Assembly (NCBI GenBank): GCA_964532005.1
Contig: CAZHER010000002.1
Location: 8,813 to 72,812, forward strand
Direction of reading: 5' to 3'
Source of the DNA: an uncultured Candidatus Saccharibacteria bacterium
GTDB lineage: Bacteria > Patescibacteriota > Doudnabacteria > UBA920
Length of the DNA stretch: 64,000 nt
Made by a program: the position numbers and the translations under genes. Under the pieces are notes generated by a model that searched no databases, was not told the DNA's origin, and worked only from the letters and a program-made list of their open reading frames with translations. Positions 883 through 37,647 of the stretch are shown here, piece after piece. Each line of letters starts with the position of its first letter. Position 1 is the stretch's first letter.

Positions 883-890
883 TCTGCGAA

Positions 891-1506
891 TTAATTCCCC
901 TGTCCTTGGACAGTAATGGTTTTAGGAAGTCTTGTCTGGGGGGTAGAAAGCTGTCCTTGGGGAACAGCAGAAGTATTGCCAATAGTGAGGGTAACAGAAG
1001 AACCGCAGGCAATCTGGGAATTGGAGAAAGTGTAGGTCAGATTAGTATATTCACTGGTAGCAGAAAGGTTTTGAATGGGACCAGAGAACCCTCCGGTGCA
1101 AGTGGCAGACACAGTATAGGTAGGACTGGTACCTTTGAGGGTGTCAGTGGTGGCTGGAGTAATGGTCAAGTCAAATCCTGGAGGTGGAGGTGGGGTTGGA
1201 TTGACCACCAGCTGTCCAATACAATCATGAGTTTGTCCTCCTCCTGTTCCAGTGAAGGTTATGGTATATGTGTTGGCAGGTGTACTCCCTGTGGTAGACA
1301 CTGCAGCTGTGGTGGTGGCGTCTGGGAATTGATTGTTGTTGGAAAAGTTGATGGAAGGACCGTTGGCTACGTTGGGAACCACTGAGGCAGAGAAGTTTAC
1401 TTGAGAATTAAAGCCGTTTACTCCGGTGGTGGATAGGGCGTAGGTGGTTGCTCCTCCTACCACGATGGATTGGGTGGATGGAGAGCAGGAGAGGGTGAAG
1501 TCGGGA
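891..1506. repeat. direct repeat copy 1 (~616 bp), identical to 5827-6442
   Basis: The minus-strand protein and the antisense plus-strand ORFs 876..1385 and 5842..6321 give identical translations across this region. Two identical reading frames imply nucleotide identity. Divergence begins at 1507 (c) versus 6443 (t). Confidence 0.8.
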
Positions 1507-1985: not shown

Positions 1986-4900
1986 TTAAGGAGCGATTTC
2001 GTTACGATCAGGATTACCGCTGGTATCAGTAAACTGATATAAAGGAGTTGAAACCATCTTGTCAGCCAAGTTAGTAGAGTCAATTATGGCTCTGTTTTGG
2101 AAGCGATAGAATGAACTAGTAGTACCAGGCTTAGTAACTTTGGCTGTAAAAGTAATACTGCAAGTTCCGCCGGCAGAGACATCGCCAACTGTAAAGTCTA
2201 CACCACCGGAAACAAGAGAATGACTACCAGCGCTACATCCGGAATAACTAATCCCGCTGACATCAGAAAGGTTGGTCAAGGTATCCCTTACCACAACTCC
2301 GGTAACAGGAGAGTCCCCACTATTACATACATTGATCTTGAACGTTACTAGATCACCCACTTTGAAAGATTTGTTGCCATTCAAAGTTACAGGCTCATGC
2401 TCTCCACTGCACGCCTGCGAGCTGCTACTCATACCAACAGGACTAACTGCAATAATATCCTTGTCGGAAGTAGAAAGATTTGGTGTACAAGGCCTTACAT
2501 ATACAGGACCGCCAGATTTCTTAGCAGATTCTGAAGCTCCATTCATAGCTGTTACTGCATAATAATAATTTCCGGTCGAAGGGGTATCTGTATAGGTTCT
2601 TGGCGAAGTCGGTAATGGGTCTGTAGTGTTAATATGAGTGCCCCAACTCGAACCGTCAGTAGAACGATATATTCTATAACCGGTAGGTGCAGGCCCTGAA
2701 CTTGGTGCGCTCCAAGTTATTAAAGCTGCTTGGCAAGCGGAAACATCAATAGACATTGAAGCTGGAGGCTCAGGCGACCCTGTAACATTAACAGTTATAC
2801 TATCGCTGGCACTGCCACCCGGGCCACTACAATCTACGGTGTAAGTTGTTGTGGAACTAAGAGACCCTGTTGACTGTGAACCGGAAATTCCAGTCCACCC
2901 TGCTGGGCTTACTGTACAAGAATTCGCATTGGTAGAACCCCAGTCTATGGTCGCACTACTGCCTGAGCTTATTGTGATATCACTAGAACTTCCGTCCGCA
3001 GTAATCCATGCGGTAGGAGGAGTATTGCCATTGATAGTGAGTTCGACTCCACCGGGACAGCTATGAGTTTTTCCACCGCCGGTGCCACTAAAGACAATTG
3101 TGTACGTGCCTGGAGCAGTCGAGCCATTTGTAGAAACCAACGCGCTGGTAGTTGCCGGGGGTACTTGGTTGTTGTTTGTAAAACTGACTGAAGGGCCGTT
3201 AGCAATATCAGGATCAATTGACCCGACGCTGAACTGCACCTGACTGGAAAATCCATTTACCGGAGTTGTTCTTAAGCTGAATACTGCTGTATCACCAACG
3301 GCAATAGATTGAGTTGCTGGCGTACATTCAAGGTCAAAATCTGGCGTTCCTGGCGGAACTACATTTACTGTTACATTATCTGTTGCGTCACCGCCTGTAC
3401 AAGTTACAACATATTCTGTAGTTGACATAAGTGATTTCTCAGTATAAGTACCTGAAGTACCTGTTTGGTCAATTGGGGTTACAATACAGTCGGTTGTATT
3501 TTCAGACCACCAATCTATAACCACTTCTGATCCCTCATCAACAGTAATTGAGCCACCTTGACCATTGGCTGTAATATTGGCTGTTGCAGATGCTATCGGA
3601 TCTACTATTAACTCAACTGAACATTGCTGGGTTTTACCGCCGCCGGTGCCGCTAAAGACAATTGTGTACGTGCCGGTTTGTGTTGAAGCATTTGTTAGGA
3701 CTAAAGCTGTGGTGGTTGCCGGAGGCACTTGGTTGTTGTTGGTAAAGCTTATTGAGGGCGGGTTCCCTACATCTGGATCCATAGAATAAACACTAAATTG
3801 CACCTGGCTATTAAAGCCGTTCATGGCTGTTGTTGAAAGACTGTATGATGTACTGCCACCAACTGTAATTGTCCTTGATGCAGGAGTGCAAACTAAAGTA
3901 AAATCAGGATTTGGATTAACGTTTACAATCACCGTGTCATTATCACTGCCTCCAGGGCCGGTACAGGTCAAGGTGTATATATATTGTGTATTTGTGAGAC
4001 TGCTTTGATCCTCACCAGGAGTTGGATAGTTATTTAAAGCTTTACTACCGCTCCAGTCCCCTGATGCTGTGCAAGAAGTTGCATTAGTAGAAGTCCACGT
4101 TAAATTAGCTGTACCGTTGTAGGCAACAGTTGTGCTTGGTCTGTCACCGTTTGCATACAAAGTCACTATTGGAGCGTCAAAACCGTCAATATCTAAAGTT
4201 ACTTGGCACTGATGACTTTTGCCACCGCCTGTAGCGGTAAATGTTATTGTGTACAAAGCTGGCGTTGTACTTCCAGTTGTACTTATTATGGCTGTTGTAG
4301 TTGCCGGAGGTACTTGGTTATTTCCTGAAAAACTAATCGAAGGGCCATTTGCCCCATTGTCGGGCAAGACTGATGAACTCACAGTCACAGCGCTATTAAA
4401 CCCGCCGTAAGCTGAAGTTGAAATTGCAAAAGATGTTGAGTCACCAACCGTGATTGTTCTTGTAGCTGGAGTACAAGATATAGCAAAATCGTTCCCCACA
4501 GTAACCACTACACTGTCAGAGTCGCTGCCTCCTGGGCCAGAACAATCCATGGTGTACGTGGTTGTTGTGGTTAATGGTCCTGTTGTGTTCGGTCCTCCGG
4601 AAGTACCGCTCCAACTTACACTGGGTGCTGGACTTGAGGTAACGGTACAAGACGTTGCATTGACAGATGTCCAACTAATTAATGCTGAGCTGTTATAGTC
4701 AATGTTGCAACTGTCAGCATCATTACACTTAATGTCAGCATTTGGACCAACAATTACTTGAACACTGTCATTGGCAGTACCGCCCGGGCCGGTACAGCTA
4801 AGGCTGTAAGTTGTGTTCGCTGTTAAATTACCTGTTGTCTGGGAACCTGAAGTTCCTGTCCAGTTTGAAGGAGCAACCGTACATGATGTTGCGTCTTGTG

Positions 4901-5810
4901 AACTCCAGGCAATAGTAGCAGAAGAATCATACGGTATAGTACATGTGTCATTTAAACCATTGCATGTGATACTTGCCTGTGGAACATTTGGATTTACAGT
5001 TAGAGTTACTGTCTTAACTGTAGTTGTTGCGCCACCATATCCGGTACATTGAATACTGTAGGTACCAGATGTATTTATACCAGTACTTTGTGTGTATGTT
5101 GTACCTGGGGTACTGCTCTTTGTTCCATTCCAACTACTGTTAGTAGGGTTAGAAGTGGCTGTACAAGCAGTTCCGCTTTGAGTGGCAGTTGGAGTCCAAG
5201 CCAAAGTTGCAGTTTGACCACTTTGAATGGTTGCGCTGCTGCCGCCGTTTATTGTCAGACTAACGTCAGGAGTATCATAAATTGCCAGTTCTGTTGTAGC
5301 GCTGTCATACAAAGGACCGCCATCAACTGTAATGCTTAAAAAAATTGAAGAACTTTCATCTCCGTAGTGAGGTGGGTTATCAGTGCATACATTCTCAAAA
5401 ACGCTTCCACTAAAAATGGCGTTGTCGTAAATTGCTGGGGCTGTCCAAATATTGGACATTCCCGGGTTAGGATTAGGTGAATAAGTATGTTCTGAATGTG
5501 TATAAGCACCGGAGACGTAATATCTGCCCATAGTAAAAGATGGGGTACCGGAAGTGGTCATTGTATATCGCACTACCGCTCCATAAGGAATTTGAATTTC
5601 ATACCCTCCGTCCATAGGATCACTTCCTATGTCAGTATAGTTACCAATGACTTGTCCAGTTGAGGTATTATAAAGTTCTAAATCTAAATCAATTCCGCTA
5701 CATAAATCGTTTGCTTGTGCTGGTTTGTCACTATAGAAGTAGAGCGCTGATGTCATGGCCACCACAGCTAAGGCGAGGAAAATTTTTATTTTTTGCATTT
5801 TATTTTTCAT
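1986..5810 (-). CDS. giant secreted surface protein (1274 aa) with three A+B Ig-like repeat units, an FN3 domain and a C-terminal DUF11-like domain
   Basis: It has a signal peptide (MKNKMQKIKIFLALAVVAMTSA). Repeat A (DFxLxCTPAxxxIxVGxxxxxxLxTxxxNGFxSxVxFS...NNQVPPATT...GTYTIxFxGTGGGKxH) occurs three times. Repeat B (W.S.NATSCT...W.G.SG....L...TTY...C.GPGG..D.V.V) occurs about six times. An FN3-like segment reads PTGYRIYRS...YYYAVTAMN. The C-terminal segment VGDLVTFKINVCNSGDSPVTGVVVRDTL resembles a DUF11/conserved-repeat domain. Confidence 0.65.
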   Translation of the reverse strand: MKNKMQKIKIFLALAVVAMTSALYFYSDKPAQANDLCSGIDLDLELYNTSTGQVIGNYTDIGSDPMDGGYEIQIPYGAVVRYTMTTSGTPSFTMGRYYVSGAYTHSEHTYSPNPNPGMSNIWTAPAIYDNAIFSGSVFENVCTDNPPHYGDESSSIFLSITVDGGPLYDSATTELAIYDTPDVSLTINGGSSATIQSGQTATLAWTPTATQSGTACTATSNPTNSSWNGTKSSTPGTTYTQSTGINTSGTYSIQCTGYGGATTTVKTVTLTVNPNVPQASITCNGLNDTCTIPYDSSATIAWSSQDATSCTVAPSNWTGTSGSQTTGNLTANTTYSLSCTGPGGTANDSVQVIVGPNADIKCNDADSCNIDYNSSALISWTSVNATSCTVTSSPAPSVSWSGTSGGPNTTGPLTTTTTYTMDCSGPGGSDSDSVVVTVGNDFAISCTPATRTITVGDSTSFAISTSAYGGFNSAVTVSSSVLPDNGANGPSISFSGNNQVPPATTTAIISTTGSTTPALYTITFTATGGGKSHQCQVTLDIDGFDAPIVTLYANGDRPSTTVAYNGTANLTWTSTNATSCTASGDWSGSKALNNYPTPGEDQSSLTNTQYIYTLTCTGPGGSDNDTVIVNVNPNPDFTLVCTPASRTITVGGSTSYSLSTTAMNGFNSQVQFSVYSMDPDVGNPPSISFTNNNQVPPATTTALVLTNASTQTGTYTIVFSGTGGGKTQQCSVELIVDPIASATANITANGQGGSITVDEGSEVVIDWWSENTTDCIVTPIDQTGTSGTYTEKSLMSTTEYVVTCTGGDATDNVTVNVVPPGTPDFDLECTPATQSIAVGDTAVFSLRTTPVNGFSSQVQFSVGSIDPDIANGPSVSFTNNNQVPPATTSALVSTNGSTAPGTYTIVFSGTGGGKTHSCPGGVELTINGNTPPTAWITADGSSSDITISSGSSATIDWGSTNANSCTVSPAGWTGISGSQSTGSLSSTTTYTVDCSGPGGSASDSITVNVTGSPEPPASMSIDVSACQAALITWSAPSSGPAPTGYRIYRSTDGSSWGTHINTTDPLPTSPRTYTDTPSTGNYYYAVTAMNGASESAKKSGGPVYVRPCTPNLSTSDKDIIAVSPVGMSSSSQACSGEHEPVTLNGNKSFKVGDLVTFKINVCNSGDSPVTGVVVRDTLTNLSDVSGISYSGCSAGSHSLVSGGVDFTVGDVSAGGTCSITFTAKVTKPGTTSSFYRFQNRAIIDSTNLADKMVSTPLYQFTDTSGNPDRNEIAP

Positions 5811-5826
5811 CTAAAAAATAGATTAA

Positions 5827-6442
5827 TTAATTCCCCTGTCCTTGGACAGTAATGGTTTTAGGAAGTCTTGTCTGGGGGGTAGAAAGCTGTCCTTGGGGAA
5901 CAGCAGAAGTATTGCCAATAGTGAGGGTAACAGAAGAACCGCAGGCAATCTGGGAATTGGAGAAAGTGTAGGTCAGATTAGTATATTCACTGGTAGCAGA
6001 AAGGTTTTGAATGGGACCAGAGAACCCTCCGGTGCAAGTGGCAGACACAGTATAGGTAGGACTGGTACCTTTGAGGGTGTCAGTGGTGGCTGGAGTAATG
6101 GTCAAGTCAAATCCTGGAGGTGGAGGTGGGGTTGGATTGACCACCAGCTGTCCAATACAATCATGAGTTTGTCCTCCTCCTGTTCCAGTGAAGGTTATGG
6201 TATATGTGTTGGCAGGTGTACTCCCTGTGGTAGACACTGCAGCTGTGGTGGTGGCGTCTGGGAATTGATTGTTGTTGGAAAAGTTGATGGAAGGACCGTT
6301 GGCTACGTTGGGAACCACTGAGGCAGAGAAGTTTACTTGAGAATTAAAGCCGTTTACTCCGGTGGTGGATAGGGCGTAGGTGGTTGCTCCTCCTACCACG
6401 ATGGATTGGGTGGATGGAGAGCAGGAGAGGGTGAAGTCGGGA
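5827..6442. repeat. direct repeat copy 2 (~616 bp), identical to 891-1506
   Basis: See copy 1. Both copies begin with ttaattcccctgtccttggacag. Confidence 0.8.
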
Positions 6443-6897
6443 TCGTTACTTGCCACTATAACATAGACATCATTACAGGTTAATGTACCAGACCAATCTG
6501 CCTGGATATCTACATAAACTGGGAGCGCATATGTTCCCGGAGTTATATTTGGGTCTACATCAAATTCCCATACATTTGTACCAGAACCAAATGTACTTGT
6601 AGGGTTATATGTTGTTGTAATCCCGCTTGGATAACTGGTTGGCCCTACATAAAACCAAGCCTGTCCTCCCCCTTCATTTGGAATCGGAGGGACAAATTCC
6701 CAAGCCCATGAAACTCCATAATGCTGACCTGGATCTGCATTCATACTGTCATTACCGACAGCTCCTAAACCTACTATGCATTGATATCCACCATTATCAG
6801 CTTGAGCGTTGTTTATTCCAACTACTGGGAATACAGAAAACACCAAAGCCAATAAGGTTAGTTTTATAATATTTTGAACATACCCTTTGGGTCTCAT
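5827..6897 (-). CDS. secreted surface protein, 356 aa; unique N-terminal domain plus the shared C-terminal repeat domain
   Basis: It has a signal peptide (MRPKGYVQNIIKLTLLALVFSVFPVVGINNAQA). The C-terminal ~205 aa are identical to the 891..1949 product. A 16-bp gap separates it from the giant gene, implying co-transcription. Confidence 0.6.
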   Translation of the reverse strand: MRPKGYVQNIIKLTLLALVFSVFPVVGINNAQADNGGYQCIVGLGAVGNDSMNADPGQHYGVSWAWEFVPPIPNEGGGQAWFYVGPTSYPSGITTTYNPTSTFGSGTNVWEFDVDPNITPGTYALPVYVDIQADWSGTLTCNDVYVIVASNDPDFTLSCSPSTQSIVVGGATTYALSTTGVNGFNSQVNFSASVVPNVANGPSINFSNNNQFPDATTTAAVSTTGSTPANTYTITFTGTGGGQTHDCIGQLVVNPTPPPPPGFDLTITPATTDTLKGTSPTYTVSATCTGGFSGPIQNLSATSEYTNLTYTFSNSQIACGSSVTLTIGNTSAVPQGQLSTPQTRLPKTITVQGQGN

Positions 6898-12928: not shown

Positions 12929-13810
12929 TTATTTTATAGGATTGGCAACCAAAGCCGGATTGAAAGATTTTTTATTTTTTGCTGACTTCTCAAAAGAGCG
13001 GGGTCTCAAATTGGCTATGTAAAACAAAAATAAGCTGAGGTTAAAAAATGAATTCAAAAATCCAAACCATAAAATTACAATTGGCTTAACATGTATTAAA
13101 AATACTAGTCCTAAACTCGCACCAAACGCATACATAGTTGCGAGTACCAAGCAAAAAATTAACAACCGTACCAATTTTGCCTTAATAAACTGCCAGGCTA
13201 CAGCACAAGCATCGTTGATGCCCTTTTGGTATATGACAATATTAGCGACAGTAAAAAAATTAAACACTGAAAAAATAAATAAAAACAATACGAGCAGAAC
13301 CATCCCTATACCGGCCATATATTCCATCGGGGCAAAAAACATTTGCCAGATCCACGGGCTTGCGAATACCAATACGGTTATGATCTGTGCTGCTGCAGTA
13401 AACAAACTGACAATTAACACAGGAAGTATAAACGTTTTCGATTGGAACAAAATTTTGCCTTGACGATCGATCCAAGATAAATCTTCGGGAGTTTCACCGA
13501 GCCGCTTTAAGTTCAATAAATCTGCAACAGTGAGCATAAAGAAAATTTTAACCCAATTTGCTAAAACCCACACCGATATTATACCCAACAAAAAAATGAA
13601 GATAATTGAAAACATCTGTGCGGGGTCGTTGCGGCTAGGAGACAGTAAATAAACCAACAAGTTTTCCAGTTGGATTTGTAGTCCGATTTTTTTCAAATAC
13701 CAAAAATTCATATTGAAACCTGCTGATAATAACAAACCAAAAAACCACAGCAGAGGAGTGGCTGCGGTCACTCGCAAAGCTGTGGTTATTAGTTTCAGAT
13801 GATTCAACAC
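12929..13810 (-). CDS. polytopic membrane protein, hypothetical
   Basis: It has about 8 predicted TM segments and no recognisable catalytic motif. Confidence 0.4.
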   Translation of the reverse strand: MLNHLKLITTALRVTAATPLLWFFGLLLSAGFNMNFWYLKKIGLQIQLENLLVYLLSPSRNDPAQMFSIIFIFLLGIISVWVLANWVKIFFMLTVADLLNLKRLGETPEDLSWIDRQGKILFQSKTFILPVLIVSLFTAAAQIITVLVFASPWIWQMFFAPMEYMAGIGMVLLVLFLFIFSVFNFFTVANIVIYQKGINDACAVAWQFIKAKLVRLLIFCLVLATMYAFGASLGLVFLIHVKPIVILWFGFLNSFFNLSLFLFYIANLRPRSFEKSAKNKKSFNPALVANPIK

Positions 13811-15736: not shown

Positions 15737-15823
15737 TGGTGCCGAAGGTGGGACTTGAACCCACAAGCCCTTGCGGGCGCTAGCTCCTAAGGCTAGTGCG
15801 TATGCCAATTCCGCCACTTCGGC
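15737..15823 (-). tRNA. tRNA-Leu (anticodon TAG), long variable arm, CCA encoded
   Basis: The reverse complement GCCGAAGTGGCGGAATTGGCATACGCACTAGCCTTAGGAGCTAGCGCCCGCAAGGGCTTGTGGGTTCAAGTCCCACCTTCGGCACCA has anticodon loop CTTAGGA. Confidence 0.85.
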
Positions 15824-15842: not shown

Positions 15843-15880
15843 CACAAAACAAAAAACCGGACTAGCCGGTTTTAAAAGTT
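15843..15880. terminator. bidirectional hairpin terminator (aaccggactagccggtt) flanked by A/T runs, downstream of the first pilin gene
   Basis: A palindromic stem with an A-run on the left and a T-run on the right. Confidence 0.5.
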
Positions 15881-15886
15881 TTTTTT

Positions 15887-16312
15887 CTAAGAGCCCGTGG
15901 TTAGCTGATTCGTCAAAGCTGTCACTATTACATAAGAAAGTATGACTATCGCCAGTCCGAGCAAGGCATACACCAAAGTCTGGCGACCTTTGGTTGCCTG
16001 CTCTTCATTTCCTCTAGAAGTCAAATAATAGTAACCCCCGATTACTAGAAACAAAACAGCAATAATGCCGGCAAAATAAAGCATTATTTTAATAATCGTG
16101 CCTATAAGTCCTGTTGCGGTTGTTTGTGCAGCCAGGCTGTTGGTCGAGTTTCCAAATGGATTTTTAGGTACACAAAGCGGACCCTGTTCCTCAAACTCAC
16201 CGCAAGGACTGGTAGCGCCTTGTGCTGATGCCACAGAGACAAACACCCCGGTAGTACCAATTAATACAAATCCCAAAAACAAAACGGTAACAAATTTCTT
16301 GAAATTATTCAT
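15887..16312 (-). CDS. TrbC/VirB2-like (T4SS-type) pilin paralog 1
   Basis: It has a signal peptide and a conserved C-terminal core IIKIMLYFAGIIAVLFLVIGGYYYLTSRGNEEQATKGRQTLVYALLGLAIVILSYVIV. The GG(Y)xY(I/L)TSxGNEE...GK motif is shared by all five paralogs. Confidence 0.6.
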   Translation of the reverse strand: MNNFKKFVTVLFLGFVLIGTTGVFVSVASAQGATSPCGEFEEQGPLCVPKNPFGNSTNSLAAQTTATGLIGTIIKIMLYFAGIIAVLFLVIGGYYYLTSRGNEEQATKGRQTLVYALLGLAIVILSYVIVTALTNQLTTGS

Positions 16313-16315
16313 AAA

Positions 16316-16774
16316 TTACGGTCCGTTACGATTATTAGTTGATGTATTGGAAGAGCCAGTTCCATTTTTAACAAATCCTACAACAGCTCTTACTATTACA
16401 AACGATAGAATTATTATCACTATGCCTATTAAGGCATAAAGAATGGTTTGTCGTCCCGAAGTAGCTTTCTCTTCATTACCAGCGGAGGTAATATACTGAT
16501 AGCCACCGTAAATCACCATAATTACTGCCACCGCAAAAGCAATGCCCAACATTATATTTATTATCTGCCCTAAAACTTCACTGGGGGTTTTCTTATCGCT
16601 AAAAACCGTGTCGGGATACGCGTCGCCGGTAGCGGTTTTTAACTTGTCCAAACCTTCGGTCACACTATCTGCATGAACAAATACTGCAGGCGACATTGCA
16701 ATTGCAAAACTTGCTGCAAAACCGACAGCCAATAAAGCTAATGATCTAAAAATACTTGATTTGCTCATATACAA
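16316..16774 (-). CDS. TrbC/VirB2-like pilin paralog 2
   Basis: It has a signal peptide and the core IYGGYQYITSAGNEEKATSGRQTILYALIGIVIIILSFVIV. Confidence 0.6.
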   Translation of the reverse strand: MYMSKSSIFRSLALLAVGFAASFAIAMSPAVFVHADSVTEGLDKLKTATGDAYPDTVFSDKKTPSEVLGQIINIMLGIAFAVAVIMVIYGGYQYITSAGNEEKATSGRQTILYALIGIVIIILSFVIVRAVVGFVKNGTGSSNTSTNNRNGP

Positions 16775-16859
16775 TTTATAATCCTAGACTTTCAAGAATT
16801 TCAAAACTATAAAAACCTAGGACTAGCCCGCACTTTTTAAGGTGCGGGCGGAAATTTTG

Positions 16860-17270
16860 TTAGTTTCCGTTGTTAGACACGAAACGGTAAACAGCACTTA
16901 CAATTACGAAGGACAAAACGATGACAACAATACCGATTAAGGAATAAACGATAGCGTTCTTTCCTTTTTCAGCCGATTCTTCATTACCAGCGGAGGTGAT
17001 ATATAGGAAACCGCCGTAAATCAAATAAATAACAGCAACGAAGAAAGCAATACCAAGTGCATAGTTAATGATTTGTTTAAACAATGCTGGTAAATCAACA
17101 TTATCATCACATCTTACACCTGTACCTTCACAAGAGTTTTGAAAGTTATTGATAAACTGGGCTTCTGCGGTTTGTGTAACCAAGACTGGAGCTAAAGCAA
17201 CAGTAAAGACTACAACCATTTGGGCCAACGCTACCCAGTTCTTTTTAAGAAATTGTTTCAATTGTTTCAC
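16860..17270 (-). CDS. TrbC/VirB2-like pilin paralog 3
   Basis: Its core reads IYGGFLYITSAGNEESAEKGKNAIVYSLIGIVVIVLSFVIV. An upstream hairpin (gcccgcac...gtgcgggc at ~16827-16852) separates it from paralog 2. Confidence 0.6.
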   Translation of the reverse strand: MKQLKQFLKKNWVALAQMVVVFTVALAPVLVTQTAEAQFINNFQNSCEGTGVRCDDNVDLPALFKQIINYALGIAFFVAVIYLIYGGFLYITSAGNEESAEKGKNAIVYSLIGIVVIVLSFVIVSAVYRFVSNNGN

Positions 17271-17369
17271 CCCCTTCCTTGATTACACAAACCTTAGGCT
17301 AACAGGGCTTGTGAAAGATAGCTATTTAATAAAATTGCTAATTTAACGATACCATACTTTGGCAAATTC

Positions 17370-17822
17370 TCAAAATAGTTTATCGTTAACGACCAAATTA
17401 ATAACAATGTTGATCAGAGCAGCTGCCATTAAAACTACTGCTAAGCCAATTGCAGACCACTGCACAGTCTGCTTACCCTTTCCTGCCTGCTCTTCGTTGC
17501 CACCGGAAGTTATATACTGATACCCACCGATCATGATGAATAAAACGGTTAAACCACCAACCAAAGAAAAAATTACATTCATACCAAATTGCAGAATATC
17601 AGCAGCCGTGCAATATTTTGGAAGCTTTTCAGTGACGTTTGCCTGATTGCCGCCATAAGCCGCAAACTGCGCTTGCAGGTCATCACAACCATTCCCTTGT
17701 AAAGTTACCTGCCCCCCTGCCCCGCCTGAAACACCCCCACCCTGAGCCAAGCTAGTGATTGGTGCTATTAGTACTACTAATATCGATACAAAAGCAAGTA
17801 AATTTAAAATTTTATTTAACAT
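17370..17822 (-). CDS. TrbC/VirB2-like pilin paralog 4 (Gly-rich N-terminal region)
   Basis: Its core reads IGGYQYITSGGNEEQAGKGKQTVQWSAIGLAVVLMAAALI. Confidence 0.55.
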   Translation of the reverse strand: MLNKILNLLAFVSILVVLIAPITSLAQGGGVSGGAGGQVTLQGNGCDDLQAQFAAYGGNQANVTEKLPKYCTAADILQFGMNVIFSLVGGLTVLFIMIGGYQYITSGGNEEQAGKGKQTVQWSAIGLAVVLMAAALINIVINLVVNDKLF

Positions 17823-17824
17823 GA

Positions 17825-18706
17825 TTATTTGTTAGAAAGAAGATTCTGTACAATGCTCACTAAACTAAATGAAAGAAGTGCTACAATAAGTCCGGCCACT
17901 GCCCAAATAATTGTTTGCTTTCCTTTTGTAACAGATTCTTGATTTCCTTGAGCCAAAACCATTCTAATACCACCTATCATAATCACCAACACTGACATGA
18001 CACCAATTAGAAAAATAAAGCCTCTCATTACAAACAAAACCAATTCGGGAAAAGTGCCGATGTTAATTGGATTAATGAGTTGATCAACCTCTTTATCAAA
18101 GTCTCCTGTATTTAGAGTTCCACACCCTGTACCCGTGCAAGTATTTGTGGGGCCATTGTTCGGGGTATTATTGGGAGTGTTGTTCGGGGTATTATTGGGA
18201 GCAACGTCGCCATAAGTTAAGCTAAAGCCACTTGTGGGTCCTGATAAATTTCTACTGTCATAAGCTGTATATTTGAAATTATACTTCCCATTACTAGGAG
18301 AACCGGAAAATGGCTTAATTGTTGCTGTATAAGTTTTTAGACTTAAAAATTTGCCATCAACTTGTTTTGTTGAACTATCCCATGTCGTAATTGTCCAAGT
18401 TTTAATTTGGTTTGTGCTGGGCGACGTTGCTCCTTGTTTCGTTGGTCCTGTGAGTATAACTTCCCAACCTGTAGGGTTTTTTACTGTGCAAGATACACTA
18501 AGCACAAAGGTGATTGTAACTGTATCGCTAACTGTCTTTACCTTATCAGGGGTAACCGAGCTGGTTCCATTCGGAAAATCTGCGTCGGTTGTGGCATTAT
18601 CACAAGTTGCAGCTTGGACATCCTGAGGCGCAACTAACACGAAGCTCAATAACAACAAAATTGTCACTAGAGCATGGGTCACAAAAATTTTTAAATATTT
18701 TTTCAT
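17825..18706 (-). CDS. pilin paralog 5 fused to a ~180-aa N-terminal extracellular domain carrying an NTPNN tandem repeat
   Basis: It has a signal peptide, a Thr/Ser-rich beta-type domain, (NTPNN)x3, then the pilin core IMIGGIRMVLAQGNQESVTKGKQTIIWAVAGLIVALLSFSLV. Confidence 0.55.
   Translation of the reverse strand: MKKYLKIFVTHALVTILLLLSFVLVAPQDVQAATCDNATTDADFPNGTSSVTPDKVKTVSDTVTITFVLSVSCTVKNPTGWEVILTGPTKQGATSPSTNQIKTWTITTWDSSTKQVDGKFLSLKTYTATIKPFSGSPSNGKYNFKYTAYDSRNLSGPTSGFSLTYGDVAPNNTPNNTPNNTPNNGPTNTCTGTGCGTLNTGDFDKEVDQLINPINIGTFPELVLFVMRGFIFLIGVMSVLVIMIGGIRMVLAQGNQESVTKGKQTIIWAVAGLIVALLSFSLVSIVQNLLSNK
18153..18205. repeat. 15-nt tandem repeat (~3.5 copies) encoding NTPNN within the pilin-5 gene
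   Basis: The unit ttgttcggggtattattgggag is repeated head-to-tail in the sequence. Confidence 0.6.
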
Positions 18707-18742: not shown

Positions 18743-20020
18743 TCAACGTTTTATCAAAGTTCTTGATTCATTCAGAGCCTGACCAATTGCCTGTTTTGGA
18801 TCCATACCGTTTTTGACAACATTATCTATCATTTTATTCAAAATGACATTCATCTTTGCCTCGTCAGGCTTGTAAAAAGATTTGGCAGTTAAATTGGCGT
18901 GTGCAAACACCCCGATTTCAAGATCTTGTATTTGTAAGGCTATCAGGTCTTTGCGCGAGGATGGTTGTTTATTTTTAGCATAATATTTATCTAATGCATC
19001 TTTTGAAGTAGCAAATTTTAGAAAATCCCATGCAACTTCACTGTTCTTGCTCTGTTTGTTTACAACCTCTCCAAAATAATTTGCAAAGTTTACCGATGGA
19101 TTGTTCAAATTTTCCTGCGGTACTGGGGCCACATCAAAATTTAAATTTGGGGACTTTGCCAATATCTGTTCCCTGGCATAGTTATAGCTATATAACATAG
19201 CTGTTCGTCCGTTTGCAAAAGCATCAATAGAATAGTCGCTTCTCTCATTCCAATTGTAGTTTTCACTGTTAGGATCTGCAAAAGACAAATAGAATTCAAA
19301 CCCTTTTACAGCCTCATTGCTACTGAATTGGGGGCTCAATCCATCAGCAGACCATGGGGTAGCTCCTGCCTGCATCATCATTAAAGCCACGATATCCTGA
19401 GCTCTATTTACGTTTGTGCTGGTTCCAATTGCGACCCCGCTTCGTGCAAAATATCCGGTTTTATCATAAGCAGTAATATCTCTGACATCCCGTTCTAACT
19501 CAGCCCAACTTTTGGGAGGGGCTGTAATTCCAACCGTGCCCAAAATATCCTTATTATAATAAAGTGCCAATGAATCAACTGACAAAGCAGTACCGTAGAT
19601 CTTCTGATCCTTAGTAAAATCTTTAATGACTACATCAACGAAAGCGTCACGATATTCTTTGTAACTGAACTTCTTTTCGTCTGCCGGCGTAACCTTATCT
19701 AAATATTTTGGTAGCCATGTATTATTAATGGAAAAGATATCAGGTCCTTGTCCTGCAGCCAATGCATTGAGTAGATCTTCTTCATAAGTCTCAATATTGC
19801 GCTTGCTGTATTCAAAAGAAACATTTGGATGCTCCTTGTGGTACGCATCAAACAAAACTCTCATTGTGCCTTCTTCAGCAAAAGGCTTCCATATAGTCAA
19901 AGTAACTTTATCTGCTTTGGCTGGGCCCCGATCACCGCCGCAACTTATTGCCAACATGGGCACCACAACTAGTATGGCCAAGAAACGGGAGTAAAATTTT
20001 ATTTTGTTGAATTTTTTCAT
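18743..20020 (-). CDS. ABC transporter substrate-binding lipoprotein (family 1, sugar-type); orphan, with no permease or ATPase adjacent
   Basis: It has a lipobox (LAISCGG) and typical SBP length and composition. Confidence 0.7.
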   Translation of the reverse strand: MKKFNKIKFYSRFLAILVVVPMLAISCGGDRGPAKADKVTLTIWKPFAEEGTMRVLFDAYHKEHPNVSFEYSKRNIETYEEDLLNALAAGQGPDIFSINNTWLPKYLDKVTPADEKKFSYKEYRDAFVDVVIKDFTKDQKIYGTALSVDSLALYYNKDILGTVGITAPPKSWAELERDVRDITAYDKTGYFARSGVAIGTSTNVNRAQDIVALMMMQAGATPWSADGLSPQFSSNEAVKGFEFYLSFADPNSENYNWNERSDYSIDAFANGRTAMLYSYNYAREQILAKSPNLNFDVAPVPQENLNNPSVNFANYFGEVVNKQSKNSEVAWDFLKFATSKDALDKYYAKNKQPSSRKDLIALQIQDLEIGVFAHANLTAKSFYKPDEAKMNVILNKMIDNVVKNGMDPKQAIGQALNESRTLIKR

Positions 20021-20964: not shown

Positions 20965-22506
20965 CTACTCTCCCAACCTCCCCAAACGGTAAAATAAAGC
21001 TTCGCTTATGTGATGTTCTTCAATATTCTCCACCATTTCCAAATCAGCAATCGTTCTAGCAACCTTCAAAACCTTAAAAACCCCGCGGACCGATAAAAAG
21101 TATTTGGTTTGCGCTTCTTGTATGATGGTATTGGCGGGTTCTTTCAGAGTGCAAAAAAGTTTTAGTTCGTCAGCCGTCATTCCTGAATTAGTTTTATACC
21201 GCCCCAACCTGCGATGCTGTATATCCCTACAGCTCGCAACTCTTTTTTGTATGTTAGCAGAGCATTCATTGGTAATACTTTGCTCTATGAATAATCCGTT
21301 GTATTCTCGGTTCACAAAAATTCTCATATCAATCCTATCAATTAACGGACCGGATAATTTTTGTGAATATTTTCTTATTGAATTTGGGGTGCACTCACAC
21401 CGGTTTGTGCCGTCTCCATGAAATCCACATGGACAAGGATTATATGCGGTAACTAACATAAAGTCAGCTGGAAAAATTGTTGCGTAATTTTTCTTATTTA
21501 TAAAAATCTGCTTTTCCTCAAGTGGCTGACGCAAAGCTTCCAAAATACTCCGCGGAAATTCAGTTAGTTCATCTAGAAATAGAACTCCTTTGTTGGCTAG
21601 GGAAATTTCACCGGGGTAGGGCAAATTTCCTCCACCAATAATGGCTGGACGCGAGGATGCATGGTGGGGTGAACGAAAAGGTCGAACGTGAGAAAGGTCT
21701 AAAACTTTGTGCGTTCCAGATACTGAATATATTTTTGCAGCTTCTAAAAATTCATCTTCGGACAAAGGAGGAAGGATTCCGATTAATGATTTTGCTAGCA
21801 TAGTTTTTCCGGATCCTGGTGGTCCTGTCATGCTCAAGTTGTGTCCCCCTGCCGCAGCAATTTCTAAGGCGCGTTTGGCCGTGGCCTGACCTTCAATATT
21901 TTTAAAGTCAACTTCTAGTTGCCCTCCTGCCTTCATAATATTAGATTTTGATCCAAGCCTAATAGAGGGTAACTGAATTTTCCCTAAAAAATAATTTTTC
22001 AATTCTGTAATACTATTCACACCAACAACATTCGGTCCTTGTACCAACAAAGCTTCTTCAATGTTATCTTTCGGAACAAAGACTGAATCTACGCCCACAG
22101 TCTTTGCTAATAGCATAGTGGGCAAAATTCCATTAACCGGCCGTAAAAACCCTTCCATAGAAAGTTCACCCACAAAAATACTAGGCCTTTTGCCTTGATA
22201 AACCAGCTGCTTTGAAGCAAATAAAACCCCCATGGCAATAGCCAAATCAAAGCGAGTTCCCTGTTTCGGCAAAAAAGCCGGGGCTAAGTTGATGGCAATC
22301 TTTAATACAGGATATTTTAACCCCGAGCTCCTTATTGCAGACCGTACTCTTTCGCGGCTTTCTCTGACAGCCACACTAGGCAACCCCACAATAACAGTTC
22401 TAGGCAGGCCTCGGGCAACGTCTACTTCTACATCGACCAATTCTGCATTTACTCCTACTATGGTGCTACTCAATACTCTGGCAATCATTTTGCCATTATA
22501 CTCCAA
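20965..22506 (-). CDS. comM: YifB/ComM family Mg-chelatase-like AAA+ ATPase
   Basis: It has an N-terminal Lon-like domain (MIARVLSSTIVGVNAELVDVEVDV), the Walker A GPPGSGKTMLA and a C-terminal Mg-chelatase-like region. Confidence 0.85.
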   Translation of the reverse strand: MEYNGKMIARVLSSTIVGVNAELVDVEVDVARGLPRTVIVGLPSVAVRESRERVRSAIRSSGLKYPVLKIAINLAPAFLPKQGTRFDLAIAMGVLFASKQLVYQGKRPSIFVGELSMEGFLRPVNGILPTMLLAKTVGVDSVFVPKDNIEEALLVQGPNVVGVNSITELKNYFLGKIQLPSIRLGSKSNIMKAGGQLEVDFKNIEGQATAKRALEIAAAGGHNLSMTGPPGSGKTMLAKSLIGILPPLSEDEFLEAAKIYSVSGTHKVLDLSHVRPFRSPHHASSRPAIIGGGNLPYPGEISLANKGVLFLDELTEFPRSILEALRQPLEEKQIFINKKNYATIFPADFMLVTAYNPCPCGFHGDGTNRCECTPNSIRKYSQKLSGPLIDRIDMRIFVNREYNGLFIEQSITNECSANIQKRVASCRDIQHRRLGRYKTNSGMTADELKLFCTLKEPANTIIQEAQTKYFLSVRGVFKVLKVARTIADLEMVENIEEHHISEALFYRLGRLGE

Positions 22507-22531
22507 GCCAGTTCACAGAAAAATAACTACT

Positions 22532-22975
22532 TTATAAATTTTTCCTAAATCGTGGGGAAAAATCAAGCAACAACAAAATAAAAACACCACCTAAAATATA
22601 AAAATCCGCAACATTTAAAATCCCGCCAAATATTGAAATAAAATCTTTCACATAACCCAAAACTATCCTCTCCGCAACATTGGAAACTGCTCCCGCCCCA
22701 ATGAAAGTCCAAGCTAATTTTCTAGGTATATCAAAAGTTAGAAAACTCCTGTACATATACACTGCCAAAATTGTTAAAGCAGTCCCATATACTAAATACA
22801 TTACCACTTGTGGAACAGGGGCGCTAAAAGCAAAGTAATAATTTTTAAAATGATCTGTAACAAAAAACTTAATTACTTGATCTACAAAAATTGCCAACAA
22901 AAAAATACAAAAATAAAAACCGACAGAAAAAGATTTTCTTACGGTTTGTAAACTTTTTTCTCCCACTAAAACCAA
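22532..22975 (-). CDS. lspA: lipoprotein signal peptidase II
   Basis: It has 4 TM segments and the conserved segment FIGAGAVSNVAERIVLGYVKDFISI...NVADFYI. Confidence 0.7.
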   Translation of the reverse strand: MVLVGEKSLQTVRKSFSVGFYFCIFLLAIFVDQVIKFFVTDHFKNYYFAFSAPVPQVVMYLVYGTALTILAVYMYRSFLTFDIPRKLAWTFIGAGAVSNVAERIVLGYVKDFISIFGGILNVADFYILGGVFILLLLDFSPRFRKNL

Positions 22976-37118: not shown

Positions 37119-37252
37119 AAACCTATTTTAACATAAAAAAAATTACAATATTATTATCAATGCTTTAGAAAAAATTTAACTTTCCCTGAACTCCCCTACT
37201 ATATATTACATTCATAACAATAAACCACATCGAATACAGATGAGGTTTATTG

Positions 37253-37326
37253 TGGTGGACCCACGGAGAATCGAACTCCGAACTCATCCATGCCATGGAC
37301 GCGTATTACCACTATACTATGGGCCC
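37253..37326 (-). tRNA. tRNA-Ala (anticodon GGC), G3:U70 present, CCA encoded
   Basis: The reverse complement is GGGCCCATAGTATAGTGGTAATACGCGTCCATGGCATGGATGAGTTCGGAGTTCGATTCTCCGTGGGTCCACCA. Confidence 0.75.
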
Positions 37327-37363
37327 TGATATTCAATTTTTAGACATTCCTGAAAATTTTATC

Positions 37364-37630
37364 TTATTCTTTTACTTGTGGCAACTGACTTTGTTGCGCA
37401 CTTTGTAATGTTTCTTGAAGCTGTTCTACTTTGTTGCGCATTGCTGGAATAATACCAATTACATTTAGAACCCAACCAATAATTAACAATGCAAGAAAAG
37501 CACCTATTACCGAACCAAACCCTGTAAGCAACCCCCTAAAAAAAGCCCAAAAATTACCCCCCAATTTATCTGAAACTTCTGTAATTTCTGCTTGAATGTT
37601 TTGTAGTTGGTGTTTGAGATCTGGTTCCAT
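37364..37630 (-). CDS. small membrane protein, hypothetical (88 aa)
   Basis: It has one central TM segment and Gln-rich termini. Confidence 0.35.
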   Translation of the reverse strand: MEPDLKHQLQNIQAEITEVSDKLGGNFWAFFRGLLTGFGSVIGAFLALLIIGWVLNVIGIIPAMRNKVEQLQETLQSAQQSQLPQVKE

Positions 37631-37647
37631 AGTTTTTTATTAATTTT

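What the first reader, a model, noticed from the sequence alone, without database searches (positions are those of the whole stretch)
15887..18706. Tandem array of five TrbC/VirB2-like pilin paralogs
Five consecutive minus-strand genes each encode a signal peptide, a variable ~60-100-aa region and a conserved C-terminal hydrophobic hairpin with GG(Y/F)xY(I/L)TSxGNEE...GK...LSFV(I/L)V. This matches conjugative/T4SS-type pilins of the TrbC/VirB2 kind. Hairpin or terminator-like elements sit between some paralogs (15843-15880, ~16827-16852). No VirB4, VirB6 or VirD4 is in the window, so the assembly machinery is elsewhere or non-canonical. The diversified N-terminal regions suggest antigenic or functional variation of a pilus-like surface filament.
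Basis: partly seen in the sequence, partly recalled or inferred. Interest (0 to 1): 0.6.

Follow-up and report, generated by a model that had tools for sequence, protein, structure and literature searches.

The report
Patescibacterial VirB2-like pilin gene array
Five neighbouring genes in an ultrasmall (Patescibacteria/CPR) bacterium encode divergent copies of a type IV secretion "pilin-like" membrane protein; such arrays were already described in 2023-2025, so this is a new example of a known and still functionally unsolved kind.

Summary
Five consecutive minus-strand genes (15887-18706) each encode a Sec-type signal peptide, a paralog-specific ectodomain and a conserved two-helix hydrophobic hairpin with a GNEE..KGK loop. 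All five pass Pfam's cutoff for PF18895 (T4SS_pilin). They fall below the cutoff for TrbC/VirB2 (PF04956), but 44 of 75 relatives hit that model.

The genome is a Patescibacteria chromosome, and its closest named relatives are Doudnabacteria MAGs. No VirB4, VirB6 or VirD4 lies in the window or in the about 14 kb of extra flank I could fetch.

Arrays of 2-11 VirB2-like pilins in Patescibacteria are published (PMC12102498), and one such array is essential in Southlakia epibionticum (PMC10633639). I therefore file this as a new member of a known kind.

What I add:
- The array sits in the same housekeeping slot (ComM-GalU-SBP-[array]-tRNA-Leu-FtsH) in about 20 relatives, never next to virB4.
- The paralogs are ancient and position-specific orthologs. 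The mature "variable" regions are 62-100% identical to the closest relative, so antigenic variation is not supported.
- The middle gene (136 aa) is the most conserved. It has its own conserved extended -10 promoter, a strong Shine-Dalgarno sequence and two downstream hairpins, so it is the likely major subunit.
- The first gene fuses an Ig-like domain to the hairpin, so it is a likely adhesin-bearing minor subunit.

No filament has been demonstrated.

The parts
17825..18706 (-). p1, 293 aa. Predicted signal peptide 1-32 (VQA|A), Ig-like beta-sandwich about 39-165, disordered Asn/Thr/Pro-rich linker 169-215 containing a conserved CTGxGCG motif, and pilin hairpin 219-291. Candidate adhesin-bearing minor subunit.
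   Evidence: ORF. PF18895 31.6 bits against a 26.6 cutoff. AlphaFold model with pLDDT about 80-87 for the beta domain and the helices H219-251 and H256-291. Foldseek gives only generic Ig-like matches, best E 6.7e-4. Only 14 homologues share the N-terminal domain.
17370..17822 (-). p2, 150 aa. Predicted signal peptide 1-26 (SLA|Q), Gly-rich variable region with two Cys, hairpin about 76-149. Its start lies 2 nt after the p1 stop, so the two are probably translationally coupled.
   Evidence: (39.8 bits).
17346..17373 (-). Promoter-like site in front of p3: -35 TTGAGA (17373-17368), 16-nt spacer, TG-extended -10 TATCGT (17351-17346).
   Evidence: Consensus scan. An equivalent TGnTAnRRT element is present upstream of the p3 ortholog in 15 of 23 genomes, against 1.1 expected from shuffles with a maximum of 5. 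The window's own variant, TGGTATCGT, is looser than that pattern.
17271..17280 (-). Shine-Dalgarno-like AAGGAAGGGG directly upstream of the p3 start.
   Evidence: Read from the sequence. An (A/G)(A/G)GGGG 3' end of the spacer is conserved in 21 of 23 genomes. Because the motif abuts the GTG, the true start may be the TTG three codons downstream (inference).
16860..17270 (-). p3, 136 aa. Predicted signal peptide 1-37 (AEA|Q), short 22-aa mature N-terminus with a C-x6-C pair, hairpin H60-91 / loop 92-96 / H97-133. The most conserved paralog and the candidate major subunit.
   Evidence: PF18895 45.2 bits. NF045849 42.6 bits, above its cutoff of 40. 95% identical to the L061 ortholog, dN 0.023, similar to FtsH. 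Model pLDDT 84-94 over the hairpin.
16779..16849 (-). Two adjacent RNA hairpins after p3: an 8-bp GC stem at 16826-16849 and a 16-bp stem at 16779-16825 that includes the AGGA upstream of the p4 start. Neither is followed by a U tract. They may act as an attenuator, an mRNA 3' stabiliser or a processing site.
   Evidence: Fold -31.2 kcal/mol, z -5.95. A double hairpin is present at the same place in L061, L002 and L003 with different sequence in the second stem, and downstream of the p3 ortholog in 17 further genomes at z -2.8 to -10.4.
16316..16774 (-). p4, 152 aa from the TTG start or 150 aa from the ATG at 16768. Predicted signal peptide ending VHA|D, a 27-aa mature variable region that is 100% conserved in L061, hairpin, and a Ser/Thr/Asn-rich C-terminal tail.
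   Evidence: (45.2 bits).
15887..16312 (-). p5, 141 aa. Predicted signal peptide 1-30 (ASA|Q), variable region with two Cys, hairpin 66-138. Its start lies 3 nt after the p4 stop.
   Evidence: (35.3 bits).
15853..15873 (-). Intrinsic terminator closing the array: AAAACCGGCTAGTCCGGTTTT followed by TTGTTTTG. It is bidirectional.
   Evidence: Conserved in L061, L002 and L003.
18743..20020 (-). Context only: orphan lipoprotein solute-binding protein (SBP_bac_1, lipobox LAISC), 36 nt upstream of p1. It is the conserved upstream neighbour of the array in about 20 relatives. It is not shown to be functionally linked.
15737..15823 (-). Context only: tRNA-Leu(UAG) between the array's terminator and ftsH.

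Best explanation
This is a chromosomal, vertically inherited array of five VirB2-superfamily (Pfam PF18895, T4SS_pilin) genes of a Patescibacteria (CPR) bacterium. It is the same kind of array already catalogued across the phylum.

Proposed mechanism, with the status of each step:
1. Each product is exported by Sec and cut by signal peptidase I after an AxA-type site. This is predicted from the sequence.
2. The mature protein sits in the membrane as a two-helix hairpin. The paralog-specific N-terminus and the C-terminus face outwards, and the invariant GNEE..KGK loop faces the cytoplasm. This rests on hydropathy and the AlphaFold models.
3. A monoderm-type (MPF-FATA-like) T4SS encoded elsewhere in the genome, comprising VirB4, a VirB6-like protein and a VirB3-like protein, extracts the subunits. 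It assembles them into a pilus-like or stalk-like surface structure used in contact with a host cell. This is inferred from the literature on other Patescibacteria and is not shown here.
4. The subunits are not equivalent. p3 (136 aa) is the major subunit. It has its own conserved promoter and strong ribosome-binding site, is followed by two hairpins, and is conserved over its full length.
5. p1, p2, p4 and p5 are specialised minor subunits. p1 would display an Ig-like adhesin domain on a flexible Asn/Thr/Pro linker. Steps 4 and 5 are inferred from comparative operon anatomy.

The confidence of 0.6 is for the whole statement. Taken separately, I put the family assignment at about 0.95, T4SS-dependent assembly into an extracellular fibre at about 0.5, and p3 as the major subunit at about 0.6.
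For: Family:
- All five pass the PF18895 cutoff.
- 75 of 75 relatives hit PF18895 and 44 of 75 hit TrbC/VirB2 PF04956, best E 4e-8.
- 75 of 75 hit NF045849, the Mycoplasma ICE pilin-like conjugal transfer protein, and 23 of 75 hit the pLS20_p028 family.

Topology:
- Each protein has three hydrophobic segments.
- The helical hairpin is modelled at pLDDT 84-94.

Host and literature:
- Relatives are Patescibacteria MAGs.
- Arrays of 2-11 VirB2-like genes are reported in 383 assemblies, and VirB4 in 2,417 of 3,035 genomes (PMC12102498, for the arrays, for the VirB4 count).
- That paper's Table S1 lists the one class-Doudnabacteria genome in the rows held, GCA_003446815.1, as VirB4-positive.
- The pilin array is essential in S. 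epibionticum (PMC10633639; PMC12857230).

Conserved and specialised subunits:
- The same five-gene order is seen in L061, L002, L003 and a 730-kb JGI contig.
- Best hits are position-specific.
- Ortholog conservation is 62-100% in the ectodomains and 87-97% in the hairpins.
- dN is 0.02-0.15, within the range of the neighbouring housekeeping genes.

p3 as a separate, strongly expressed unit.

p1 domain architecture.
Against: - No VirB4, VirB6, VirB3 or VirD4 lies in the 64-kb window, in about 14 kb of added flank, or within 10 kb of any of the 57 related loci. For those loci I looked for Walker-A ORFs and large ORFs and scanned the candidates against Pfam.
- I could not examine the rest of this genome, so linkage to a T4SS is by homology and literature only.
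- The window proteins score below Pfam's cutoff for TrbC/VirB2 proper (15.9-23.6 bits against 27.9; two of the five show no TrbC hit at E<=1).
- A profile search of PDB sequences found no conjugative pilin.
- Foldseek gave only non-significant helical-hairpin matches, best E 0.29.
- No pilus has been seen in any Patescibacterium.
- The major/minor assignment rests on promoter and hairpin conservation, not on expression data.
Confidence: 0.6

Rival explanations
1. The proteins are membrane-resident parts of a monoderm T4SS translocation channel or short stalk, as suspected for VirB2-like small proteins of Gram-positive and Mollicutes conjugation systems. They do not polymerise into an extended pilus. 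The ectodomains simply decorate the cell surface around the machine.
For: - The best curated matches are to monoderm conjugation proteins: NF045849 in 75 of 75 relatives and the pLS20_p028 family in 23 of 75.
- A lactococcal TrsB with a CagC/TrbC/VirB2 Pfam hit is described as a mating-channel protein (PMC10221548).
- Gram-positive T4SSs are generally held to lack pili (PMC8557374; PMC12857230).
- VirB2 is needed even in T4SSs that make no pilus (PMC12857230).
Against: - Five conserved, specialised paralogs, one of them set up for high expression and one carrying an adhesin-like domain on a long linker, look more like a major/minor-subunit fibre than a channel lining.
- The published reviews regard a pilus as possible for Patescibacteria.
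Confidence: 0.25
2. The proteins form a T4SS-independent system. They are Sec-exported, hairpin-anchored surface proteins that make an envelope lattice or a self-assembling fibre, possibly working with the adjacent orphan solute-binding lipoprotein in nutrient capture from a host.
For: - The array is never next to virB4 in this lineage. It occupies a core housekeeping slot directly downstream (15-43 nt) of an orphan SBP gene in about 20 genomes.
- In two distant loci (L039, L032) such arrays lie beside PilB-like T2SSE ATPases instead.
- The family is very large, with 85,096 representatives at 50% identity, many of them multi-hairpin fusions.
Against: - The whole 20-kb neighbourhood is collinear, so SBP adjacency may reflect only synteny.
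- Homology is specifically to T4SS and conjugation pilin-like families.
- VirB4 is present in about 80% of Patescibacteria assemblies, and VirB2-like genes lie away from virB4 in about 40% of genomes that have both.
Confidence: 0.1
3. The array is an antigenic-variation or host-range repertoire. Alternative pilin copies would be diversified to evade recognition or to fit different hosts, as proposed for Bartonella Trw and Anaplasma VirB2 paralogs.
For: - The genes are tandem divergent copies, 30-49% identical between paralogs.
- This analogy is drawn in PMC12102498.
Against: - Orthologs at the same array position are much more alike than paralogs.
- Ectodomains are 62-100% conserved against the nearest relative and diverge less than the signal peptides.
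- dN is in the housekeeping range.
- There are no recombination-prone repeats.
- Array size and order are fixed across genera.
Confidence: 0.04
4. The genes encode unrelated small membrane proteins, for example holin-like proteins, or are type IV pilus (PilA-type) pilins misread as T4SS pilins.
For: The proteins are small and have two transmembrane helices. Weak sub-threshold Pfam hits to miscellaneous membrane families appear.
Against: - The only hits above cutoff are to T4SS pilin families.
- The proteins have Sec-type signal peptides with AxA sites, not the class III G|F(M)xxxE prepilin motif (read directly from the sequences).
- They occupy a core-genome, non-phage context.
Confidence: 0.01

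Closest known systems
VirB2-like pilin arrays of Patescibacteria (Quinonero-Coronel et al. 2025, PMC12102498; the essential pilin series in the Southlakia epibionticum T4SS cluster SEML1_0006-0019, Wang et al. 2023, PMC10633639)
   Same: - Tandem, sequence-divergent PF18895/PF04956-type pilin genes. The published arrays hold 2-11 genes with mean identity 25% and maximum 54%; here there are 5 genes at 30-49%.
- Chromosomal, in a monoderm ultrasmall bacterium, with no relaxase nearby.
   Different: - Here the array is not inside a T4SS cluster. It sits in a conserved ComM-GalU-SBP-[array]-tRNA-Leu-FtsH slot with no virB4 within reach.
- The lineage-wide position-specific orthology, the separately promoted central gene and the Ig-domain first gene were not described in the passages of those papers that I read.
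TrbC/VirB2/TraA conjugative pilins of diderm T4SSs (Pfam PF04956)
   Same: - A long cleavable signal peptide, two hydrophobic helices joined by a short polar loop, and small size.
- Profile-level similarity: E 6e-5 to 0.015 for three window proteins, and 44 of 75 relatives at E<=1e-3.
   Different: - The window proteins score below the PF04956 gathering cutoff.
- The mature proteins are longer (99-261 aa against about 70-80, a figure from general knowledge) because of N-terminal ectodomains.
- The loop is GNEE..KGK rather than purely basic.
- There are no adjacent virB genes.
- There are no sequence hits to solved pilins.
Pilin-like small proteins of monoderm conjugation systems: Mycoplasma ICE Mbov_0395/MMCAP2_0565 family (NCBIfam NF045849) and the pLS20_p028 family (NF045890)
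   Same: - The hairpin domain matches NF045849 in all 75 relatives tested. p3 scores above that model's cutoff (42.6 against 40 bits).
- This agrees with the MPF-FATA ancestry of patescibacterial VirB4 reported in PMC12102498.
   Different: - According to their NCBIfam descriptions those are genes of mobile elements (ICEs and conjugative plasmids); their copy number was not examined here. Here there are five chromosomal copies.
- Four of the five window proteins score below the equivalog cutoff.
Multi-copy VirB2 (TrwL) and VirB5 genes of the Bartonella Trw T4SS, and Anaplasma VirB2 paralogs
   Same: Tandem, sequence-variable VirB2 copies serving host attachment rather than DNA transfer.
   Different: Those arrays lie within or beside the T4SS locus in diderm pathogens and are interpreted as antigenic or host-range variants. 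Here the orthologs are conserved and position-specific, which argues for fixed subunit roles.

Membership tests
Pfam PF18895 T4SS_pilin | Match to the family HMM at or above the gathering score (26.6 bits) | tested here: met
   The five proteins score 31.6, 39.8, 45.2, 45.2 and 35.3 bits, covering 73-99% of the 71-position model. Independent precomputed annotation on the source contigs agrees.
Patescibacteria VirB2 array (as defined in PMC12102498) | At least two pilin genes (PF18895 or PF04956, i-Evalue < 0.001, more than 50% HMM coverage) in tandem or separated by one non-pilin gene, in a Patescibacteria genome | tested here: met
   Five adjacent genes meet these criteria. The closest relatives are Patescibacteria MAGs, labelled Doudnabacteria or 'Saccharibacteria'.
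Patescibacteria VirB2 array (as defined in PMC12102498) | Co-occurrence with VirB4 in the same genome | not testable with these tools
   Only 64 kb plus about 14 kb of the genome was readable, and none of it encodes VirB4. Table S1 of PMC12102498 lists the one class-Doudnabacteria genome in the rows held as VirB4-positive.
TrbC/VirB2 pilin (Pfam PF04956) | Match to the family HMM at or above the gathering score (27.9 bits) | tested here: not met
   The scores are 23.6, 21.0 and 15.9 bits for three proteins, and the other two show no TrbC hit at E<=1. At family level, 44 of 75 relatives hit at E<=1e-3, best 4e-8. This makes it a sister family or superfamily member, not PF04956 in the strict sense.
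TrbC/VirB2 pilin (functional definition) | Cleavable signal peptide followed by two hydrophobic helices joined by a short polar loop | tested here: met
   Hydropathy, AlphaFold helices 60-91 and 97-133 in p3 and 219-251 and 256-291 in p1, and AxA-type sites read from the sequences. Cleavage itself is a prediction.
TrbC/VirB2 pilin (functional definition) | Gene embedded in, or next to, a virB/trb/tra T4SS operon | tested here: not met
   The neighbours are SBP, GalU, ComM, tRNA-Leu, FtsH, RNase III and SMC. No VirB4-like ORF lies within 10 kb of any of the 57 related loci.
TrbC/VirB2 pilin (functional definition) | Polymerises into an extracellular conjugative-type pilus; structural similarity to solved pilins | tested here: inconclusive
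NCBIfam NF045849, Mbov_0395 family pilin-like conjugal transfer protein | Score at or above the equivalog cutoff (40 bits) | tested here: inconclusive
   p3 scores 42.6 bits and meets the cutoff. The other four score 19.7-35.6 bits and do not. All 75 relatives match at E<=1e-3.
Type IV pilus (T4P) pilins | Class III signal peptide with a G|(F/M)xxxE prepilin-peptidase site and an N-terminal hydrophobic helix | tested here: not met
   The N-termini are classical Sec signal peptides ending VQA|A, SLA|Q, AEA|Q, VHA|D and ASA|Q (sequences). There is no Pfam N_methyl or pilin hit.

The most novel reading that the evidence does not exclude
In this lineage, probably Doudnabacteria, the five genes would encode a fixed-stoichiometry heteropolymeric surface fibre of a monoderm bacterium. 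One abundant major VirB2-type subunit (p3) would combine with four conserved minor subunits, including an Ig-domain adhesin pilin (p1). The genes sit in a core-genome slot unlinked to virB4. Assembly might use non-canonical machinery, and the fibre might work with the co-located orphan solute-binding lipoprotein as a conduit for taking up host-derived molecules.
Probability: 0.12. Interest if true: 0.7.

Novelty: new member of a known kind. Interest (0 to 1): 0.3.

Why it matters
Patescibacteria make up a large share of bacterial diversity and appear to live attached to host cells. Their T4SS and its pilin array are essential in the one genetically tractable species, yet nobody knows what structure the pilins form or what it transports.

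This locus adds nothing categorically new. The comparative anatomy does give testable handles:
- The array is a stable, vertically inherited core-genome feature with fixed, specialised subunits, not a variable repertoire.
- One subunit (the p3 type) is the obvious candidate for the major building block, and so the first target for proteomics, antibodies or cryo-ET.
- The nearest curated relatives are pilin-like proteins of monoderm conjugation systems. This bears on the open question of whether the pilins came in with the MPF-FATA-type T4SS or were co-opted from diderm systems.

Tried and rejected
- A profile search of PDB sequences gave no relevant hit.
- tblastn of p3 against 72,556 plasmids gave no match, possibly because of low-complexity masking of the transmembrane segments.
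- dN/dS against the closest relative (L061) failed because dS is saturated or undefined for most genes. I used region-wise amino-acid identity and dN instead.
- Finding the T4SS machinery:
  - Pfam scans of about 40 window ORFs found none.
  - 10 kb of left flank (L059) and about 4 kb of right flank (L060) are all housekeeping.
  - Large ORFs and Walker-A ORFs flanking the 57 related arrays turned out to be PKD proteins, NrdD, DUF2079, flippases, DnaA, an OLD nuclease and PilB-like T2SSE ATPases, not VirB4.
  - Exact look-ups of GyrA and of the truncated TyrRS ORF found nothing on record.
  - The 663-aa ORF without a Pfam hit (30715-32706) is a polytopic membrane protein with no Walker A motif, so it is not a VirB4; any glycosyltransferase-like identity is only my reading of the sequence, with no family hit.
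- Replication origin. The strand switch and cumulative GC-skew minimum near 37-38 kb is not flanked by dnaA; the ORF at 37812-39155 is a Wzy_C O-antigen ligase-like protein. I make no claim about proximity to the origin.
- Functional linkage of the SBP to the array was considered. I left it as unproven because the whole region is collinear across relatives.

Full report
**1. Observation**

ORF listing confirms five adjacent minus-strand genes at the reported coordinates. In the order of transcription they are:
- p1, 17825-18706, 293 aa
- p2, 17370-17822, 150 aa
- p3, 16860-17270, 136 aa
- p4, 16316-16774, 152 aa (150 aa from the ATG that gene callers use)
- p5, 15887-16312, 141 aa

Alignment of the five shows 29-38% global identity and a conserved C-terminal block. 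That block consists of a hydrophobic helix, the motif GG(Y/F)xY(I/L)TSxGNEE..KGK, and a second hydrophobic helix. p1 carries the variant GGIRMVLAQGNQES..KGK.

Hydropathy analysis finds three hydrophobic segments in each protein, a signal peptide and two helices. The N-termini end in AxA-type signal-peptidase-I sites: VQA|A, SLA|Q, AEA|Q, VHA|D and ASA|Q. I read these from the sequence, so cleavage is a prediction.

The mature paralog-specific region is 22-49 aa in p2-p5 and about 185 aa in p1. This is shorter than, and for p1 much longer than, the "60-100 aa" in the finding.

An HMM built from the hairpin block finds exactly these five genes in the window.

**2. Family assignment**

Pfam results:
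- All five pass the gathering cutoff of PF18895 (T4SS_pilin), with 31.6-45.2 bits against 26.6.
- TrbC/VirB2 (PF04956) is hit below its cutoff by three of them, with E 6e-5 to 0.015.

Family-level results on 75 aligned relatives:
- All 75 hit PF18895 and 44 hit PF04956, best E 4e-8.
- All 75 hit NCBIfam NF045849, "Mbov_0395 family pilin-like conjugal transfer protein" from Mycoplasma ICEs. p3 scores above that model's cutoff.
- 23 of 75 hit the pLS20_p028 conjugation protein family.

AlphaFold models:
- p3 is modelled as helix 60-91, loop 92-96 and helix 97-133, with pLDDT 84-94 over the hairpin.
- p1 is modelled as a beta-sandwich (about 39-165, pLDDT about 80-87), a disordered Asn/Thr/Pro-rich linker (169-215) and the hairpin 219-291.
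- Foldseek identifies the p1 N-terminal domain only as a generic Ig-like fold: antibody V domains, RhoGDI, a CLIPPER adhesin domain and an S-layer protein, with best E about 1e-3.

Structural comparison of the hairpin with solved pilins was uninformative. The holin and type IV pilus readings are rejected by the family hits and by the Sec-type signal peptides.

**3. Genomic setting**

The window is a housekeeping chromosome segment. It encodes FtsH, SMC, FtsK (with alpha and gamma domains), RecA, GyrA, IF-2, RNase III, ribosomal proteins and 12 tRNAs.

Relatives are Patescibacteria MAGs. The named ones are Candidatus Doudnabacteria, and the closest are TPA assemblies labelled "uncultured Candidatus Saccharibacteria". 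The source scaffold is ENA ERZ28615168 MUNK22-1_SAMEA7428533 scaffold_88.

I found no VirB4, VirB6, VirB3, VirD4 or relaxase in the window. I also found none in the 10 kb beyond its left end (L059) or the about 4 kb beyond its right end (L060). The rest of the genome could not be read.

**4. What is already known**

- Wang et al. [quoted passage not shown]
- Quinonero-Coronel et al. 2025 (PMC12102498) searched 3,035 Patescibacteria genomes with PF04956 and PF18895.
  - They found VirB4 in 2,417 genomes.
  - They found VirB2-like genes in 1,948 genomes that also have VirB4. The pilin gene was near virB4 in 1,135 of these.
  - They found 441 arrays of 2-11 pilin genes in 383 assemblies, with mean identity 25% and maximum 54%.
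  - They raised antigenic variation or host adaptation as possible reasons for the arrays.
- A 2025 review (PMC12857230) calls the six divergent VirB2-like pilins of S. epibionticum remarkable because Gram-positive T4SSs otherwise lack VirB2. It notes that a pilus is only a possibility.

The present array meets the published definition. It is therefore a new member of a known kind.

**5. Comparative results that go beyond the finding**

(a) Conserved location.
- A scan of one genome per species retrieved 57 loci, and nearly all carry arrays of 2-13 hairpin genes.
- In about 20 loci of the same lineage (FtsH 67-91% identical) the array sits in the same slot: ComM - GalU - lipoprotein SBP - [5-6 pilin genes] - tRNA-Leu - FtsH - membrane protein - RNase III - SMC.
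- A closer relative (L061) and a 730-kb JGI contig show the same arrangement.
- None of the 57 loci has a VirB4-like ORF within 10 kb.
- In this lineage the array is thus a vertically inherited core-genome feature that is physically unlinked to the T4SS ATPase.

(b) Ancient, position-specific paralogs.
- Each window paralog finds its best match at the same array position in L002 and L003, at 57-82% identity. Identity between paralogs is 30-49%.
- The order is largely collinear in the more distant 6-gene arrays, which carry one extra divergent first gene.

(c) No hypervariability.
- Against L061 the hairpins are 87-97% identical. The mature ectodomains are 62-100% identical: p4 27/27, p3 19/22, p1 147/185.
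- The least conserved parts are the cleaved signal peptides, 27-61% identical in four of the five.
- dN is 0.02-0.15, within the range of the neighbouring housekeeping genes. dS is saturated.
- There are no long DNA repeats among the copies. The best is 77 nt at 61-75% identity.
- This argues against antigenic variation and for fixed, specialised subunits.

(d) Operon anatomy.
- p1/p2 and p4/p5 are separated by only 2-3 nt. p3 is bracketed by spacers of 99 and 85-91 nt.
- Upstream of p3 there is a TTGAGA-16 nt-TG-extended TATCGT promoter-like site and an AAGGAAGGGG Shine-Dalgarno sequence.
- In 23 genomes the spacer before the p3 ortholog contains a strict TGnTAnRRT element in 15, against 1.1 expected from shuffles with a maximum of 5. 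It ends in (A/G)(A/G)GGGG in 21.
- Downstream of p3 two adjacent hairpins fold at z = -5.95. The same arrangement recurs with different sequences in L061, L002 and L003. Strong hairpins follow the p3 ortholog in 17 further genomes, at z -2.8 to -10.4.
- A canonical terminator at 15853-15873 closes the array.
- p3 is also the most conserved paralog: 95% identity to L061, dN 0.023, and alignable over its full length in distant genomes.
- My inference is that p3 is a separately and strongly expressed major subunit, and that the others are minor subunits.

(e) Family size.
- A profile search of 1.84 billion representative proteins finds 85,096 representatives at E<=1e-3.
- Many of them carry 2-8 hairpins in one polypeptide.
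- The family is very common in metagenomes.

**6. Mechanism**

Shown here:
- family membership;
- hairpin topology, as a prediction;
- conserved array order;
- purifying selection on the ectodomains;
- a conserved promoter, Shine-Dalgarno sequence and hairpins around p3.

Inferred:
- Sec export and SPase I cleavage;
- N-out/C-out insertion, with the invariant GNEE..KGK loop on the cytoplasmic side;
- extraction and assembly by a VirB4-type T4SS encoded elsewhere;
- a heteromeric fibre or stalk with p3 as the main building block and the Ig-like domain of p1 exposed on a flexible linker for host contact.

In solved conjugative pili the inter-helix loop lines the lumen. That statement is from general knowledge and was not tested here. 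If it applies, the near-invariance of the loop would fit a lumen-lining or lipid-binding role.

The main rival is that these proteins stay in the membrane as channel or stalk components, as suspected for VirB2-like proteins of Gram-positive systems. A T4SS-independent role cannot be excluded, because linkage to VirB4 could not be tested in this genome.

**7. Origin**

PMC12102498 leaves open whether the pilins were co-opted from diderm systems, because MPF-FATA systems are thought to lack VirB2. Here the strongest curated matches are to pilin-like proteins of Mollicutes ICEs and to a pLS20 family protein. Both belong to monoderm conjugation systems. This points, tentatively, to inheritance together with the MPF-FATA-type machinery. 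It needs a proper phylogeny.

**8. Verdict**

Antigenic variation is not supported, and the filament is unproven. The kind is already published, so novelty is modest and I score interest at 0.3. The useful increments are the conserved core-genome slot unlinked to virB4, the position-specific orthology, and the nomination of a major subunit.

Noticed in passing
window 889-1506 and 5825-6442: A 618-bp exact direct repeat. It encodes the identical C-terminal ~205 aa of two secreted proteins (891-1949, 352 aa; 5827-6897, 356 aa) that flank the gene for a 1274-aa DUF11/CLIPPER surface protein (1986-5810). It is either a very recent duplication or gene conversion, or an assembly artefact.
   Followed up: partly
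L031 7712-14806; L033 8509-15601; L038 358-5292; L045 7-5149: In Peregrinibacteria and Gracilibacteria loci the pilin hairpin occurs as the N-terminal module of giant 1436-1656-aa proteins. In three of the four loci (L031, L033, L045) these are preceded by 243-353-aa ORFs with three tandem hairpins. The representative library holds many 'polypilin' proteins with 2-8 hairpins, for example P0144 (552 aa, 6 hairpins) and P0146 (820 aa, 8 hairpins). I did not check whether some of these are gene-calling fusions.
   Followed up: no
L039 4355-6022 (-); L032 6747-7943 (-); L018 11139-12479: Some distant pilin arrays lie directly beside PilB-like T2SSE ATPases of the type II/IV pilus kind (L039, L032). 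In L018 the array lies directly beside dnaA. No array lies beside virB4.
   Followed up: partly
window 18743-20020 (-): An orphan lipoprotein solute-binding protein (SBP_bac_1, lipobox LAISC) with no ABC permease or ATPase nearby. It lies 15-43 nt upstream of the first pilin gene in the window and its three closest relatives, and it is the upstream neighbour in about 20 relatives. This may be co-transcription or simply conserved synteny.
   Followed up: partly
window 12929-13810 (-): A 293-aa polytopic membrane protein with about 5-6 predicted transmembrane segments and no Pfam family. It is conserved in synteny just after ftsH in the closer relatives but evolves fast, at 33-36% identity to L002/L003 and 61% to L061.
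   Followed up: no
window ~37000-38000: The cumulative GC-skew minimum coincides with a switch from minus-strand to plus-strand genes, which looks like an origin. No dnaA is there; the flanking genes are a TerC/DUF475 membrane protein, two tRNAs and a Wzy_C-type ligase.
   Followed up: partly
L061 4004-4213 compared with window 20965-22975: In the closest relative the ComM (Mg-chelatase-like) gene between lspA and galU appears to be missing, and lspA is called as only 69 aa. This would be a local deletion in an otherwise collinear region.
   Followed up: no
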